From a virus: a stretch of DNA of 45,018 bases. Below the pieces are notes generated by a model that made no database searches, was not told where the DNA came from, and saw only the letters and a list, made by a program, of their open reading frames with translations. Shown one piece after another: positions 10,024 through 37,650 of the stretch (positions are counted from its first letter, which is position 1; every line of letters begins with the position of its first letter). The position numbers and the translations under genes are program-made. The stretch lies in IMG/VR virus record IMGVR_UViG_3300023208_000002; one strand, 5' to 3'.

Positions 10024-10064
10024 TATAGATTCACCCTATATAAGTTTTACTTATAATAACAAAA

Positions 10065-20782: not shown

Positions 20783-21232
20783 TTAGTTAGTTTCTTCGAT
20801 ACCGCTAGACATCATATTAAAGTTGTATGTATGCCCGTTTAAAAGCTGTGCAATACCAGTACCACCAGATTTAGTTACCATTGTACCTGTAAGCGTTTGT
20901 TTGCGCTTAACAGATGGATAGCTTACTTGGAACTCACAGCGGCGAACTTCCATGTTTTGAATAAAGTCATTATAGACAGTTTCCAAAACTGGTACAGATC
21001 GGCTATTTGCTTCAAGTGATACAGTAATCGGGGTTTCATGCGGAATGAAGCCCATAGACTGCTTACCATCAACACCAACACGGGTTTGAGCTAATGTAAC
21101 ATCAGAGAACGTTACAAATGCGTCAGACTGTGCGCCTTCAATAGTAATCCAGTCATCATACAAACCAACACAGCGGAACTGTACAATACTATTTGCCGCT
21201 GTAATAGTATTTGGATTATATCCCATTGCCAT
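20783..21232 (-). CDS. Tail tube protein
   Basis: 149 aa; immediately downstream of the sheath gene. Confidence 0.65.
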   Translation of the reverse strand: MAMGYNPNTITAANSIVQFRCVGLYDDWITIEGAQSDAFVTFSDVTLAQTRVGVDGKQSMGFIPHETPITVSLEANSRSVPVLETVYNDFIQNMEVRRCEFQVSYPSVKRKQTLTGTMVTKSGGTGIAQLLNGHTYNFNMMSSGIEETN

Positions 21233-31581: not shown

Positions 31582-31760
31582 TTCGCCATTACTCCATGTA
31601 TGCAATAACTACGAACAACTAGTTTGTCGTTTTTAGAATATGCATCCTTGTTTATCTCACATTGCCTCATGTTCGCTTGAGGTATTTGTATTGATTCCAT
31701 TGATTGCCCTCTTGTTCCACCATGATGTAGAACCAAAACCAAGTAAACTACGTTAATCAT
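31578..31760 (-). CDS. Hypothetical small protein with N-terminal hydrophobic segment
   Basis: MINVVYLVLVLHHGG...; 4-nt overlap with the upstream gene. Confidence 0.45.
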   Translation of the reverse strand: MINVVYLVLVLHHGGTRGQSMESIQIPQANMRQCEINKDAYSKNDKLVVRSYCIHGVMAK

Positions 31761-32086
31761 TCTACAAACTCCTCTTTATATTTTTTAATATCCATCTTTG
31801 GCTTAGGTTTGTAGTGGATCTCTTTTAGATCAGCAGGAAGATCAATGCTCGATAAAAGCCCATTAAATCCTAAACCACCTAAACAATTTAATTTAGCATT
31901 CTCAATAAAAATATCATCACCAACGATTCTCGGAGATTTATCAAGAAGCCAAGTAATTTCCTCACCCTTCGGACACACAAACCCATCAATGGTTTTTAAA
32001 TCCTCAGTGGTCTGCATAACCAAGGCACAAATAAACTCAGGATATTTATCCCAATCAACAATATTACTATTTTCAACCACAATCAT
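31757..32086 (-). CDS. Hypothetical protein (109 aa); first gene after conserved-box promoter D
   Basis: AAGGGG RBS; ORF. Confidence 0.55.
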   Translation of the reverse strand: MIVVENSNIVDWDKYPEFICALVMQTTEDLKTIDGFVCPKGEEITWLLDKSPRIVGDDIFIENAKLNCLGGLGFNGLLSSIDLPADLKEIHYKPKPKMDIKKYKEEFVE

Positions 32087-32134
32087 TTCAAACCCCTTCT
32101 ACTGAATAACTAAATCATACCACTCTTAAATATA

Positions 32135-32150
32135 ATTCTCAATAGTAAAT
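32135..32150 (-). promoter_or_regulatory. Conserved box D (exact 16-mer), immediately after terminator 32174-32193
   Basis: ATTTACTATTGAGAAT on the minus strand. Possible readings are TACTAT as -10, or TTGAGA-17-TATGAT. Confidence 0.5.
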
Positions 32151-32173
32151 ATAAAATAGTTTAGATAAAATAA

Positions 32174-32193
32174 AACCACCCGTTAGGATGGTT
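32174..32193 (-). terminator. Intrinsic terminator closing the ORF-free segment
   Basis: Minus strand reads AACCATCC-TAAC-GGGTGGTT (one mismatch), followed by TTATTTTATC. Confidence 0.65.
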
Positions 32194-32194
32194 C

Positions 32195-32650
32195 TATTGG
32201 CTTAACTAACACACTTTGCATTTTGCCTTATGCGCTAAGACCTTTTGTGTTTAAGGGCTAGTGATTGCACTTTCATTGATTCACTTCGCAAGACGTAATA
32301 TCCCTTTCGGGTTTGTGCTTTCGTCTGAATTTAAACTTAGATGAAGTGAACGCTAGCAACCAACAGGAATCCCCATCAGAATTCACTTCTCTAAGTTGCC
32401 CACTTTCTGGCGGTCACTAAGCTGAATAACCTAGAATACAAGTAAACATCAATCGGGGTTTCATGCCCCAAGCTATATACAATTTACCTATATGTTAAAA
32501 CACAGGTTTCGCCTCATCCAATAAAACCAAGTATTGTGAAGCTCCGCCACAGATTAAAGCTCTTGGAAGCATCTGTTTTGCGCTGTGCTATTGATCGGCA
32601 ACGTGCGAATAGTTGCATTAGTGATACCACACCACACGATGACCATTGTT
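32195..32650 (-). ncRNA. Candidate large structured non-coding RNA of unknown class (strand tentative)
   Basis: No ORF in any frame. About 44% GC against an AT-richer genome. Several strong hairpins, including a 15-bp stem and a GNRA-looped helix on the minus strand, plus a terminator at the minus-strand 3' end. Confidence 0.3.
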
Positions 32651-32780
32651 TTTTTTAATTGCCAATAGTTCGTGATTATGTCGCACATGGATTCAATCAA
32701 TAATCAAATAATACCAAACCAAACTAAAAATACAAATCAGTTGTTTTGATATTGGTTATCAATTTTACTTAATTCAAAAA

Positions 32781-33722
32781 ATGCGATTGTATGATAAAAT
32801 TAATCATCAATTACATGCGAGAGTACACATGGTTAATAAAGTATCTGATCAAGAAATCAATCAAGTAATATCCCTAGTCTTTAATGATGGTGCTACATTC
32901 AAAGATGCCTGCTTGCAAGTTGGCAGACACCAGAGTGTTATGTCGAAAATAATTCGCAATATGGGTTACACAATACCAAAAGAAACAGGAAAGAACACAA
33001 GAAAGAATTTACCAACACAAGAAATCATAAATATGTATAACAGTGGTCTTAGCGAATTATTTATAGCTAAAAAACTCAATGTTAGCAGATGCGCTATAAG
33101 ACAAAGACTTGTAGAAAATAACGTATATATCAGGACTCCAAGCGAAGCAAGTTATATTAGCGCAAAACAATTCACTCCTGAACAAAGAAAATTAAGGGCA
33201 TTTGCTGCACATAAAGCCAAAAGAGGTAAGGCTGAACGCGAAGAAAGCAGAATAATGAGAGCAAAAACACTTGAAAATAATGCTTACGAAAATATGACTG
33301 GAAAAGGAGAGCTTGAAATAAAAGAAATATTCGAAGCTAGAAAAATAAAACATACATGGCAGAAAGCCGTTGGTAGGTATAGCTTGGATTTTTTAATTGG
33401 AAATGTGGCGCTGGAATTAAGGAGTGGAACTGGCTATAGAGGGGATACACACAAGAAAAACGGCAGGATTAAATTCCTTAAGAGCTTAAATTTGACCACA
33501 ATCTATGTTCTATTTGATGATGTGTCAAACCTTATTGCAAATGTAGATTATGTGATTGATGAGATTCACAAGGAAAATAAAAGCCCATTACCTGACGGTT
33601 ATTTTAAAGTATTAACCATTAGATCAAAGGATTGCGAATTAAGAACTGGCAATGATGGTAAATTCTATTCTCAGAAAATAGAACCTACCATTGTGAAAAG
33701 CATTAAAATTTACAGCTATTGA
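32781..33722 (+). CDS. Free-standing nuclease: tandem HTH modules plus C-terminal PD-(D/E)XK (Vsr/DUF559-like) domain; probable homing endonuclease
   Basis: HTH-like GLSELFIAKKLNVSRCAIRQRL. The C-terminal GELEIKEIF...WQKAVGRYSLDFLIGNVALELRSG resembles the E...D...ExK core. It is on the opposite strand to all neighbours. The start may be ATG 32829. Confidence 0.55.
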   Translation: MRLYDKINHQLHARVHMVNKVSDQEINQVISLVFNDGATFKDACLQVGRHQSVMSKIIRNMGYTIPKETGKNTRKNLPTQEIINMYNSGLSELFIAKKLNVSRCAIRQRLVENNVYIRTPSEASYISAKQFTPEQRKLRAFAAHKAKRGKAEREESRIMRAKTLENNAYENMTGKGELEIKEIFEARKIKHTWQKAVGRYSLDFLIGNVALELRSGTGYRGDTHKKNGRIKFLKSLNLTTIYVLFDDVSNLIANVDYVIDEIHKENKSPLPDGYFKVLTIRSKDCELRTGNDGKFYSQKIEPTIVKSIKIYSY

Positions 33723-34492
33723 TTAATTAAGTTATCTGGTATCTCAATTATAAGCTTGGCTCTACACTTGCACATTGGGAGCCAAGCGGGCTGGATAAAT
33801 TCTCCGTCGATATAACACCCTTCCTTGATATTATATCTTGTCCCGTTAGCCTTTTTGTGGCTAGCACGTGGTTCTCTTGATGCGCCAGAATGTAGCCAAA
33901 TAGCTTCCTTGATCCCCAACTCTTCAGCGCGCGCCTTTTCAAAGGCCTGATTCAACTTAGCCGTCTGATCCTTTGCAATATTCTTTGCCCTACGATCTGT
34001 TACGCCGTCAATCTCTTTGAGTTGCTTGATTAGTGATTCAACATCATAGCCATTCTTGACACTACGCCAAACCGCAGACCGAACTTTATCTAAATACTCA
34101 TTACCGATTGATTTAATTAGAGCAACATTCTCACCTAAGGCAATCTGCGCTTGATCTTCCATGTATTGCGTATGACGAAAATTAACAGTGAATCCACGCT
34201 TACGAAGAATGCCTAACAAGCGCTTGTCGTAGTTGGTTTTAGCCTTACTCACCAACTCTTGCGCTACTTGAGTCGATAGCTTATCTAAACGATCTTGCCA
34301 CCGACTCACTAAACCGTCAATAACATGTCCCATCCAATCCAAAATGCCATCCATAGCAATTTCAGACCGCATAGGCTTAACTACGTCCCGAATTAAATCG
34401 GAACGCATTTCATCCATCATGCCTTGCATTTGCTCCCTGTACCACTTAGTTAGGGATGCATTAGGTGCTATTGAATCAAGGGTTATTTCCAT
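33716..34492 (-). CDS. Head morphogenesis protein (Mu F / SPP1 gp7 family)
   Basis: 258 aa, directly after the portal gene. AKNIAKDQTAKLN and WLHSGASREPRASHKKANG...CKCRA patterns. Confidence 0.75.
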   Translation of the reverse strand: MEITLDSIAPNASLTKWYREQMQGMMDEMRSDLIRDVVKPMRSEIAMDGILDWMGHVIDGLVSRWQDRLDKLSTQVAQELVSKAKTNYDKRLLGILRKRGFTVNFRHTQYMEDQAQIALGENVALIKSIGNEYLDKVRSAVWRSVKNGYDVESLIKQLKEIDGVTDRRAKNIAKDQTAKLNQAFEKARAEELGIKEAIWLHSGASREPRASHKKANGTRYNIKEGCYIDGEFIQPAWLPMCKCRAKLIIEIPDNLINQ

Positions 34493-37605: not shown

Positions 37606-37650
37606 AGCCTAACCTCTCTTTAGCCTCCCAAAATAATAACACAAAAAGAA

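What the first reader, a model, noticed from the sequence alone, without database searches (positions are those of the whole stretch)
32174..32660. About 0.45 kb of ORF-free, GC-enriched, hairpin-dense sequence with its own terminator: candidate large structured phage RNA
About 690 bp separate ORF 31757..32086 (-) from ORF 32781..33722 (+), and no frame carries an ORF of 60 aa or more. Hand translation of both strands gives only 8-44 codon fragments without Shine-Dalgarno sequences. This is by far the longest non-coding stretch in a genome where most genes overlap or abut.

The core (32195-32650) is about 44% GC by my count of four 60-nt lines (40-48%), against a visibly AT-richer genome. It is packed with helices:
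- A 15-bp stem with one bulged base: 32335-32350 pairs with 32382-32396 around a 31-nt loop.
- The 5' strand of that stem (gaagtgaa, 32343-32350) can instead pair with ttcacttc at 32280-32287, giving two mutually exclusive folds.
- agacg/cgtct (32291-32295 / 32322-32326) encloses ccc-N4-ggg (32302-32311). Its loop reads GAAA (GNRA) on the minus strand.
- GGGG-N7-CCCC at 32455-32469.

On the minus strand the segment ends in an intrinsic terminator (32174-32193 plus a U-tract). A conserved promoter box follows immediately. The segment therefore behaves as a separate transcription unit or a long structured 3' region. I cannot assign it to any RNA class I know.
Basis: partly seen in the sequence, partly recalled or inferred. 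Interest (0 to 1): 0.7.

Follow-up and report, generated by a model that had tools for sequence, protein, structure and literature searches.

The report
Modular structured RNA island in phage
This gene-free stretch of an Acinetobacter phage most likely encodes a chain of five small folded RNAs that no database describes, are better conserved than the neighbouring protein genes, are shared by unrelated Acinetobacter phages and two small plasmids, and in larger phages sit beside transfer-RNA genes and the enigmatic GOLLD RNA.

Summary
The observation largely holds. 32087-32780 has no ORF above 48 aa, folds better than shuffles on the minus strand only (z -2.9), and ends in a real terminator hairpin. 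GC enrichment is weak (41.2% against 37.7%), and the proposed alternative fold is not conserved.

The window is an Obolenskvirus myophage. The stretch is a promoter-to-terminator unit on the minus strand (extended -10 at 32716-32708, start near 32701, terminator 32193-32164). It is not one large fold. It is five independent modules:
- M1: 32701-32590
- M5: 32589-32485
- M3: 32484-32417
- M2: 32415-32334
- M4: 32333-32199

Compensatory base changes support M1, M2 and M4. One-sided changes in their helices give G-U on this strand, apart from a few unpaired cells. Module cores are 92-100% identical where flanking genes are 70-91%.

The modules recur in other orders in Friunavirus and in 51-, 94- and about 100-kb phages. 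M5 also occurs on two small plasmids. Single modules there have their own promoter and terminator.

In phages Ab15 and Herod, M4 and M5 (and, in Ab15, M2 and M3) head a tRNA array that holds a bona fide GOLLD RNA. The M2 stem encloses a tRNA in three relatives.

Rfam and the literature have nothing on these modules. Their function is unknown and there are no transcript data.

The parts
32708..32735 (-). Promoter of the RNA unit: weak -35 TTGTAT (32735-32730), 16-nt spacer, extended -10 TGgTATTAT (32716-32708). Predicted start near 32701.
   Evidence: Sequence. In independent upstream contexts, a -10 hexamer, TGn-extended in all but two (L025, L043), ends 5-7 nt before the first base of module 1. 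The block is conserved in relatives. The simple sigma-70 scan does not call it, because the -35 matches only 3 of 6.
32590..32701 (-). Module 1. Outer stem P1: 32701-32694 with 32597-32590. Hairpin HpA: 32690-32676, loop UGCGA. Hypervariable insert: 32675-32617. Hairpin HpB: GCAAC-UAUUCGCAC-GUUGC, 32616-32598.
   Evidence: 28 distinct copies were collected. Alignment A1 holds 19 distinct conserved-core sequences: 94% of cells paired, 8 pairs changed on both sides, 0/500 shuffles reach this. Unconstrained folds of most copies recover the P1 + HpA + HpB junction. HpB is invariant, but for many loci it was the search key.
32485..32589 (-). Module 5: an 81-nt two-hairpin core (32584-32504) closed by CACAG/CUGUG.
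   Evidence: It is 95-96% identical to two small A. pittii plasmids, where it has its own TATAAT promoter, a long outer stem and a terminator. It also occurs in phages Ab15, Herod and IME-Ap7. There is little variation; the changes seen keep pairing as G-U on this strand.
32417..32484 (-). Module 3: hairpin GGGG-CAUGAAA-CCCC (32469-32455) followed by the conserved GAUUGAUG.
   Evidence: It is shared with AP22, IME-Ap7, Phab24 and Ab15. Relatives read UCCC, a G-U pair on this strand only. The scan lists it as a weak terminator-like site.
32334..32415 (-). Module 2. Hairpin Hc: 32415-32398, loop GAAAGU. C arm: 32397-32381. Cargo: 29 nt, 32380-32352. D arm: 32351-32334. C and D form a 16-pair stem with one bulged A.
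   Evidence: Alignment A2. The C-D stem is 99.6% paired, 5 pairs changed on both sides, and all one-sided changes give G-U. Three pairs of the Hc stem changed on both sides. In relatives the cargo is a tRNA or tRNA-like sequence.
32199..32333 (-). Module 4: three helices with invariant unpaired blocks (CGAAAG, GAUAUUA, CAAUGAAAG, UUAGCG, CAAAGUG).
   Evidence: Alignment A4: 21 pairs, 97.6% paired, 11 pairs changed on both sides, 0/500 shuffles reach this. Covariance model R1 finds one copy here (169 bits), and copies in L001-L003, L005-L007, L037, L043, Ab15 and Herod.
32164..32193 (-). Intrinsic terminator: AACCAUCC-UAAC-GGGUGGUU followed by UUAUUUUAUC.
   Evidence: fold, -15.8 kcal/mol. Annotated as a terminator in phage fThrA. 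Relatives keep the hairpin with a different stem and loop.
32114..32142 (-). Next promoter (TTGAGA-17-TGgTATGAT), driving ORF 32086-31757. It marks the downstream boundary of the RNA unit.
   Evidence: It is 93-100% conserved in relatives.

Best explanation
**What it is.** The stretch is a non-coding RNA island on the minus strand. A host-type promoter with an extended -10 (32716-32708) starts transcription at about 32701. The intrinsic terminator at 32193-32164 ends it. The primary transcript would be about 530 nt.

The transcript is a chain of five independently folding modules (M1, M5, M3, M2, M4). In M1, M5 and M2 a stem pairs the module's own two ends.

**Shown**
- The helices are conserved through compensatory changes.
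- One-sided changes in the helices give G-U on this strand, apart from a few unpaired cells.
- The conserved cores are better conserved than the flanking protein genes.
- The same modules occur alone and in other orders in unrelated Acinetobacter phages, and M5 on two plasmids. Single modules there have their own promoter and terminator.
- In the about 100-kb phages Ab15 and Herod, M4 and M5 (and, in Ab15, M2 and M3) open a tRNA array that also holds a true GOLLD RNA.
- The M2 stem encloses a tRNA in three relatives.

**Inferred**
- The transcript is cut between modules by the host enzymes that mature tRNA precursors.
- The closing stems act as processing and stability stalks. They release compact RNAs of about 70-135 nt.
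- The invariant loops are surfaces for a host factor common to Acinetobacter.
- The variable inserts are cargo positions where tRNA or tRNA-like pieces come and go.

This window carries a version without tRNA or GOLLD, so the modules must have a role of their own. Most likely they act in the same process as phage tRNA islands: supporting or protecting translation during infection.
For: **Transcription unit**
- Promoter and terminator.
- The -10 box ends 5-7 nt before the first base of M1 in independent upstream contexts.
- L026 has promoter, M1, terminator and nothing else. L043 has promoter, M1, M4, terminator. The plasmids have promoter, M5, terminator.

**Structure**
- M1: 8 pairs changed on both sides.
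- M2: 8 pairs changed on both sides, 5 in the C-D stem and 3 in Hc; the C-D stem is 99.6% paired.
- M4: 11 of 21 pairs changed on both sides.
- In all three, 0/500 shuffles reach the observed pairing and covariation scores. Sliding the 3' partners by 1-3 columns drops pairing to 23-47%.
- The minus strand folds at z -2.9, the plus strand at z -1.1.

**Selection**
- Module cores are 92-100% identical where flanking genes are 70-91%.

**Spread**
- 243 Acinetobacter phage records match a 132-nt query made of M1 plus the start of the Friunavirus tail-tube gene. Some Friunavirus records match only the gene part.
- Other phage lineages and the two plasmids.
- The core 23-mer is absent from the genome collection except in one phage-like contig.

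**tRNA and GOLLD link**
-.
- GOLLD and ROOL lie near tRNA islands, and tRNAs occur in the GOLLD linker (PMC12286853).
Against: - No transcript data exist. The promoter, the start site and the processing are all predictions.
- HpB and the proposed loop-loop pairing of M1 never vary, so they give no covariation evidence. HpB was also the search key for many loci.
- Much of the covariation in M2 and M4 comes from a few lineages (L034/L037/L042/L044; L037 and L043).
- The island is dispensable. Relative L013 lacks it, and part of Friunavirus has an unrelated filler in the same outer stem.
- No consistent protein partner is encoded nearby.
- M5 has almost no variation.
- The proposed role in translation or tRNA biology rests on genomic association only.
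Confidence: 0.7

Rival explanations
1. Cis-acting leader. The RNA modifies RNA polymerase or recruits a factor, like HK022 put or lambda nut boxB. Transcription started at 32701 would then read through the terminator into the 23-kb late operon downstream.
For: - The unit lies between a promoter and a terminator, upstream of the structural genes.
- M1 begins at the predicted start site.
- Hc-type hairpins have covarying stems and a conserved GAAAG(U/A) or GAAUAGA loop, which recalls boxB.
Against: - A separate strong promoter follows the terminator directly (32142-32114), so read-through is not needed.
- The same M1 sits inside a late operon of T7-like Friunavirus, which uses a different polymerase.
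- M5 stands alone on plasmids with no downstream operon.
- tRNAs are embedded in the modules.
Confidence: 0.1
2. Anti-defence decoy RNAs. The modules, or their tRNA-like cargo, mimic a host RNA that a defence system targets, such as tRNA for anticodon nucleases or a CRISPR repeat as in RNA anti-CRISPRs. This rival concerns function only and is compatible with the best explanation.
For: - The modules spread across unrelated phages and plasmids of one host genus. The inserts are hypervariable between near-identical genomes, a pattern typical of arms-race loci.
- The cargo includes tRNAs with abnormal anticodon loops.
- The 3' end of Hc plus the start of the C arm share AUUUAGA with the A. baumannii I-Fb repeat GTTCATGGCGGCATACGCCATTTAGAAA, and the D arm starts GUUCA (one search confirms the repeat sequence).
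Against: - Similarity to the CRISPR repeat is limited to 7 + 5 nt. The hairpin stem covaries freely, whereas a Cas6f mimic should keep the repeat's stem. The 'handle' is buried in the C-D stem.
- No Rfam tRNA or CRISPR-repeat hit for the window.
- The variable parts show no significant complementarity to the phage genome.
Confidence: 0.15
3. Relic of a decayed tRNA array. Short conserved blocks persist only as homology arms for recombination between phages, and the modules themselves have no RNA function.
For: - The region is a mosaic with presence/absence polymorphism.
- The window's M2 cargo keeps 14 nt of the 3' half of a T-arm.
- Ab15 keeps only the 3' end of M1.
Against: - Compensatory changes keep 24 + 21 + 21 pairs at 94-98% pairing.
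- Invariant unpaired blocks persist across distant copies of M4.
- The cores are more conserved than coding DNA, even in the 70%-identity relative L014.
- Stand-alone genes with their own promoter and terminator exist.
Confidence: 0.07
4. A DNA-level element (replication origin, packaging site or protein-binding array), or a decayed or small protein gene.
For: The locus lies next to the packaging and head genes. Some deposited relatives annotate 29-48-aa ORFs over it.
Against: - One-sided changes give G-U on one strand, which would be A-C mismatches on the other.
- There are no iterons or tandem repeats, and the GC-skew change coincides with the plus-strand ORF rather than an origin.
- The small ORFs match no PHROG family.
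- Conserved blocks of 20-35 nt are separated by indels of arbitrary length.
Confidence: 0.03

Closest known systems
GOLLD and ROOL RNAs (large ornate phage and prophage RNAs near tRNA islands; Rfam RF02032 is GOLLD)
   Same: - Phage-encoded, with structure supported by covariation and no known function or protein partner.
- Found beside tRNA islands, with tRNAs inside variable linker regions (PMC12286853).
- In phages Ab15 and Herod, M4 and M5 (and, in Ab15, M2 and M3) lie in the same island as a true GOLLD RNA (219 and 225 bits).
   Different: - No sequence or structure match to either family in the window or in the module regions.
- The window has no GOLLD and no tRNA.
- The modules are small (about 70-135 nt), occur singly and in shuffled order, and one also occurs on plasmids.
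- Whether they oligomerise is untested.
Bacterial and phage Y RNA-like RNAs (YrlA)
   Same: - A stem formed by the RNA's two ends holds a tRNA-like domain.
- They occur in phages that carry tRNA arrays.
- They are processed from a common precursor (PMC4201824).
   Different: - No Ro60/Rsr gene within 4 kb.
- By eye, no GNCGAAN0-1G motif near the 5' end; M1 reads AUCGAAUC.
- No hit to any Rfam family.
- The tRNA-like cargo has normal rather than permuted topology, and it is optional.
Processing stalks of rRNA operons and stable RNAs of the phage T4 tRNA cluster (own knowledge, not tested here)
   Same: - Long-range stems formed by the sequences that flank a structured RNA within a polycistronic non-coding transcript.
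- Small stable RNAs of unknown role co-transcribed with phage tRNAs.
   Different: - No sequence similarity is known.
- Cleavage of these stems by RNase III, E or P is only inferred.
- The stems are conserved even when the cargo is a 29-nt hairpin.
Lambda nut boxB and HK022 put antitermination RNAs (own knowledge)
   Same: Small hairpins with covarying stems and a conserved purine-rich loop, placed just downstream of a promoter and upstream of a terminator.
   Different: - The loop is 6-7 nt (GAAAGU, GAAUAGA) rather than the GNRA-like pentaloop.
- No boxA.
- An independent promoter follows the terminator.
- The elements also occur in operons transcribed by a phage polymerase and on plasmids.

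Membership tests
GOLLD RNA (RF02032) | Match to the conserved 3' domain covariance model at or above the gathering score (150 bits) | tested here: not met
   - No hit in the whole window at gathering score.
- No hit at E up to 10 in 32000-32850.
- The model itself works in this setting: 219 and 225 bits in Ab15 and Herod, 760-1000 nt downstream of the shared modules.
GOLLD / ROOL kind | Phage-encoded structured RNA located in or beside a tRNA island | tested here: inconclusive
   - Met in relatives: tRNAs in L002, L016, L025, L034, L041, Ab15 and Herod.
- Not met in the window itself: 0 tRNAs.
ROOL RNA | Match to the Rfam covariance model | tested here: not met
   No hit.
tRNA (RF00005 / ARAGORN) | Cloverleaf with anticodon arm, scored by a covariance model or ARAGORN | tested here: not met
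   - Window: none, even with ARAGORN thresholds relaxed to 80% on the M2 cargo.
- Relatives carry tRNA at the homologous cargo site: 45.3, 40.8 and 44.7 bits.
YrlA / bacterial Y RNA | Encoded within about 4 kb of a Ro60/Rsr (TROVE) gene on the same strand | tested here: not met
   The neighbours are a Mu F head-morphogenesis gene, a portal-sized ORF (by synteny with annotated relatives), an HTH protein and small ORFs. The criterion comes from PMC4201824.
YrlA / bacterial Y RNA | GNCGAAN0-1G motif near the 5' end, plus D- and T-arm mimics | tested here: not met
   - By eye, the 5' end of M1 reads AUUGAU(C/U)GAAUC, which does not fit the motif.
- No Rfam hit.
RNA anti-CRISPR (repeat mimic) | Sequence and hairpin similarity to the host CRISPR repeat | tested here: not met
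   - Only AUUUAGA and GUUCA are shared with the A. baumannii I-Fb repeat.
- The Hc stem varies freely with compensation.
Known self-cleaving ribozymes and riboswitches (all Rfam 15 families) | Covariance-model match | tested here: not met
   Only three chance-level hits, at E of 5 to 10. Catalytic activity itself cannot be tested here.
Independent transcription unit (sigma-70 promoter plus intrinsic terminator) | -10 box at start-site distance and a GC-rich hairpin followed by a U-tract | tested here: met
   - Extended -10 TGgTATTAT 6 nt before M1.
- Terminator hairpin of -15.8 kcal/mol plus UUAUUUUAU.
- These are predictions only; there are no transcript data.
RNase III / tRNA-precursor processing stalk | Cleavage of the closing stems in vivo | not testable with these tools
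   Only the architecture is shown: a 16-pair bulged stem that flanks tRNA cargo with the tRNA 3' end 1-5 nt from the D arm.

The most novel reading that the evidence does not exclude
These modules are a new class of horizontally mobile RNA scaffolds of Acinetobacter mobile elements: at least five phage lineages plus small plasmids. Ultra-conserved stems and loops would hold hypervariable or tRNA-like cargo. With GOLLD and phage tRNAs they would form one functional RNA system, for example presenting tRNA mimics or shielding phage tRNAs from tRNA-targeting defences. They would then be a small and tractable entry point to the unsolved function of GOLLD/ROOL-type islands.
Probability: 0.3. Interest if true: 0.85.

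Novelty: new variant of a known kind. Interest (0 to 1): 0.72.

Why it matters
Obolenskvirus and Friunavirus phages are leading candidates for therapy against multidrug-resistant Acinetobacter baumannii. Their genome papers report no tRNA genes and do not discuss this region. Deposited records leave it blank or annotate 29-48-aa 'hypothetical proteins' over it.

The data show that these genomes carry RNA genes under stronger constraint than their structural proteins. The same RNA genes are exchanged between myophages, podophages, larger phages and plasmids.

The modules co-occur with GOLLD RNA and tRNA arrays. They are short (about 70-135 nt) and exist in a minimal version without tRNA or GOLLD in a 45-kb lytic phage that can be engineered. 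That offers a direct experimental handle on a long-standing open question: what the structured RNAs of phage tRNA islands do.

Tried and rejected
- **Rfam.** The whole window at gathering score, and the region at E up to 10, gave nothing meaningful.
- **tRNA search.** ARAGORN found none in the window.
- **Repeats.** The repeat search found only short two-copy matches, with no iterons or tandem arrays.
- **Small ORFs and decayed gene.** The five longest ORFs (35-48 aa) have no PHROG match.
- **Mis-specified D-arm pattern.** A 19-mer was used instead of the intended 18-mer. It returned six chance hits in coding regions (L046-L051), which were discarded.
- **Guide-RNA idea.** The variable parts show no complementarity to the rest of the genome beyond shuffles. 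One 16-nt same-sense identity of M3 at 21026-21041 lies inside a gene, lacks the hairpin arm and is probably chance.
- **More copies of M4.** Model R1 found none beyond the known ones in 31 sources. Fuzzy motif search shows that M1, M2 and M4 are single-copy in the window.
- **RNA anti-CRISPR and YrlA.** Both were considered and failed their defining features.
- **Host origin.** The exact core 23-mer is absent from 185,579 genomes, except in one phage-like contig.
- **Literature.** No paper holds the core sequences. No transcriptome covers a phage that carries the modules.
- **Hc-like hairpin scan.** A strict scan was too narrow to be informative: 9 hits on the RNA strand, 0 on the other.
Full report
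**Setting**

The window is close to a whole genome of an Acinetobacter myophage of the genus Obolenskvirus. The intergenic DNA matches 95 Acinetobacter phage records, and the three relatives whose records were opened are classified as Obolenskvirus.

Genes from about 45 kb down to 8.8 kb run on the minus strand. Within that run, terminase- and portal-sized ORFs, assigned by synteny with annotated relatives, are followed by a Mu F head-morphogenesis gene at 33716-34492. Next comes a 313-aa ORF on the opposite strand (32781-33722), then the finding, then small genes and the capsid and tail genes.

**Check of the observation**

- No ORF exceeds 48 aa in 32087-32780. It is the longest ORF-free gap in the genome.
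- As RNA, the minus strand of 32160-32660 folds at -139.6 kcal/mol (z = -2.90, 0/100 shuffles). The plus strand gives z = -1.09.
- The terminator hairpin at 32193-32174 with its U-tract is real. A relative annotates it as a terminator. The simple scan missed it.
- The downstream promoter TTGAGA-17-TGgTATGAT (32142-32114) is found.
- GC enrichment is weak: 41.2% against 37.7%, and 19% of equal-sized windows are as high.

**Comparative anatomy**

Eleven relatives were aligned in minus-strand orientation. They show short islands of near-perfect identity separated by unalignable inserts of arbitrary length. From this and further loci, the stretch resolves into a promoter, five modules and the terminator.

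*Promoter.* An extended -10, TGgTATTAT (32716-32708), ends 6 nt before module 1. In independent upstream contexts (Obolenskvirus, L022/L034, L025, L026, L037/L044, L041, L043), a TAnnnT box ends 5-7 nt before the same first base. That box is TGn-extended in all but L025 and L043. This is the spacing expected if the RNA starts there.

*Module 1 (32701-32590).*
- An outer stem encloses a hairpin with loop (G/U/C)GCGA, a hypervariable insert of 30-95 nt, and the hairpin GCAAC-UAUUCGCAC-GUUGC, which abuts the 3' strand of the outer stem.
- Across 19 distinct conserved-core sequences, 94.3% of cells pair and 8 pairs changed on both sides. No shuffle in 500 reaches this. Sliding the partners drops pairing to 23-45%.
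- All one-sided changes in the inner eight pairs of the outer stem give G-U on this strand.
- Most unconstrained folds of 28 full copies recover the same junction.
- Caveat: the second hairpin, and a possible GCGA:UCGC loop-loop contact, never vary. That hairpin was my search key.

*Module 2 (32415-32334).*
- It begins with a hairpin that has a covarying stem (GCCU/AGGC, GCCC/GGGC, GCCAC/GUGGC, UGCUAG/CUAGCA, GCCUG/CAGGC) and a conserved GAAAG(U/A) loop.
Five pairs changed on both sides and the one-sided changes are all G-U.
- What the stem encloses varies. It holds a tRNA-Ile(UAU)-type gene in L016 (40.8 bits) and IME-Ap7 (45.3 bits, with a 6-nt anticodon loop). It holds a tRNA-Lys-like gene in Herod (44.7 bits). 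Several other relatives carry weaker T-arm-bearing sequences, and the window carries a 29-nt hairpin.
- The window's cargo keeps 14 nt of the 3' half of a T-arm-like hairpin seen in L037. It is homologous to the cargo of Ab15, and by eye the differences keep the hairpin paired.

*Module 4 (32333-32199).*
- With the distant copies L037 and L043, 11 of 21 pairs changed on both sides. Pairing is 97.6%, no shuffle reaches this, and slid controls give 26-41%.
- The unpaired blocks are invariant.
- A covariance model finds it once in the window (169 bits), and in L001-L003, L005-L007, L037, L043, Ab15 and Herod.

*Module 3 (32484-32417).* It carries the GGGG/CCCC hairpin. Relatives read UCCC, which pairs only on this strand.

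*Module 5 (32589-32485).*
- It looked like spacer until a plasmid search. Its 81-nt core is 95-96% identical to two small mobilizable A. pittii plasmids.
- There it has a TATAAT promoter, a long outer stem and a terminator.
- It also occurs in Ab15, Herod and IME-Ap7.
- Variation is too low for covariation inside the module.

The strand at 32280-32287 belongs to a helix of module 4. It changes together with its module-4 partner, not with 32343-32350. The proposed switch is therefore not supported.

**Constraint and spread**

- Against ten relatives, the flanking head and portal DNA is 70-91% identical. The module cores are 92-100%, and that includes the most distant relative, L014.
- M1 occurs in Obolenskvirus. 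It occurs in part of the T7-like Friunavirus, between a small gene after the capsid gene and tail tubular protein A, inside a longer stem. Phage P1 fills that same stem with an unrelated 40 nt.
- M1 also occurs in the 94-kb phage Phab24, in the 51-kb phage HFM1 next to tRNA-Asn, and in metagenome contigs.
- Abp95, a myophage, and vB_ApiP_P2, a podophage, share the same insert sequence. This points to recent exchange.
- One relative lacks the island altogether.
- The core 23-mer is absent from one genome per species of 185,579 species, apart from one phage-like contig.

**Link to tRNA islands and GOLLD**

In phage Ab15 (102 kb), a promoter is followed by a relic of M1, then M5, M3, M4 and M2, then a tRNA-like sequence, tRNA-Ile and tRNA-Asn. 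A GOLLD RNA at 218.9 bits (gathering score 150) comes next, followed by four more tRNAs. The deposited record annotates only tiny 'hypothetical proteins' there.

Phage Herod (97 kb) has the same layout with GOLLD at 225.2 bits.

GOLLD and ROOL are described as phage RNAs of unknown function near tRNA islands, with tRNAs sometimes in the GOLLD linker (PMC12286853). The window has neither GOLLD nor tRNA.

**Interpretation**

*Shown:* a set of RNA structures on the minus strand that are under selection and exchanged horizontally. They sit between a predicted promoter and a terminator and belong to the repertoire of Acinetobacter phage tRNA islands.

*Inferred:* one primary transcript of about 530 nt is cut into compact small RNAs. 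The closing stems serve as processing and stability stalks. The invariant loops bind a host factor. The role is tied to tRNA or translation during infection.

I put 0.7 on the structural and transcriptional reading. I put much less on any particular function.

**Rivals**

- *Antitermination-type leader:* weakened by the promoter right after the terminator, and by occurrence in operons transcribed by a phage polymerase and on plasmids.
- *Decoy RNAs against defence systems:* compatible with the data but untested. The specific CRISPR-repeat mimic version fails, because the hairpin stem covaries freely and only 7 + 5 nt match the I-Fb repeat.
- *Relic or recombination linkers:* contradicted by the compensatory changes and the stand-alone genes.
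- *DNA site or coding sequence:* contradicted by the strand-specific G-U changes, the indel pattern and the absence of protein matches.

**Comparison with known families**

- The stretch works like the GOLLD/ROOL kind of tRNA-island RNA. It is not a member of either family.
- It resembles YrlA in holding a tRNA-like domain on a terminal stem. It lacks the Ro60 neighbour and, by eye, the 5' motif.
- No paper in the library contains the core sequences. An Obolenskvirus genome paper reports no tRNA genes and does not discuss the region.

I therefore rate it a new variant of a known kind.

Noticed in passing
L054 3184-3549 (phage Ab15, PP763259.1) and L055 3527-3895 (phage Herod, MW316732.1): Bona fide GOLLD RNAs (218.9 and 225.2 bits; gathering score 150) lie inside the tRNA arrays of two about 100-kb Acinetobacter phages. 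The Ab15 record annotates only 29-58-aa hypothetical proteins over this island.
   Followed up: partly
window 32781-33722 (+): A 313-aa ORF on the opposite strand carries HTH-type DNA-binding matches. Only three other Acinetobacter phages have it (96% identity). Otherwise it appears at about 35% identity in Vibrio, Haemophilus, Klebsiella and Salmonella phages. This patchy spread, and relatives carrying different genes at this site, suggest a mobile gene next to the RNA island. No nuclease domain was identified.
   Followed up: partly
L002 2768-2840 (phage IME-Ap7, OR791279.1): An unannotated tRNA (45.3 bits) with a 6-nt anticodon loop, which ARAGORN reports as tRNA-??? with a two-base anticodon. 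It sits inside the module 2 stem. It resembles the tRNA-Ile(UAU) of L016.
   Followed up: partly
L053 2001-2081 (plasmid NZ_CP107290.1) and L052 2201-2281 (plasmid NZ_CP139253.1): The plasmid copies of module 5 are stand-alone small RNA genes. One lies just downstream of repM. The other is convergent with an operon of HTH regulator, reverse transcriptase and PBECR2 nuclease. Whether that neighbourhood means anything is unknown.
   Followed up: no
L038 1440-1520 (Friunavirus P1, MF033350.1): This phage has the same long outer stem, CTTTAAGATATGAT...ATCATATCTTAAAG, as the Friunavirus phages that carry module 1. Its interior is an unrelated 40 nt, with no target-site duplication. The stem may be a native processing site into which interiors are swapped by recombination.
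   Followed up: partly
L040, L016, L042, L044, L034 (downstream or upstream of module 1): A small hairpin motif recurs on the RNA strand: (U)GAC, then a variable 4-6-bp stem, then a loop GAAAG(A/U) or GAAUAG(A/U). It is sometimes present twice per island. A strict scan gave 9 hits on the RNA strand and 0 on the other.
   Followed up: partly
window 21026-21041: A 16-nt identity with module 3 (GCATGAAACCCCGATT, same sense) lies inside the gene at 20783-21232. It lacks the 5' arm of the hairpin. One in 100 shuffles reaches this length, for one of five segments tested, so it is probably chance.
   Followed up: yes
L014 842-907 (phiAC-1-like contig): A match to the Rfam int-alpA RNA just above the gathering score (37.9 against 35.8 bits), well away from the island.
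   Followed up: no
window 37633-37641 and 10053-10061 (-): Two further sites where a terminator-like hairpin with a U-tract is followed directly by an extended -10 box (TGTTATTAT). This is the same punctuation as at both ends of the RNA island and suggests a general operon-boundary syntax in this phage.
   Followed up: no
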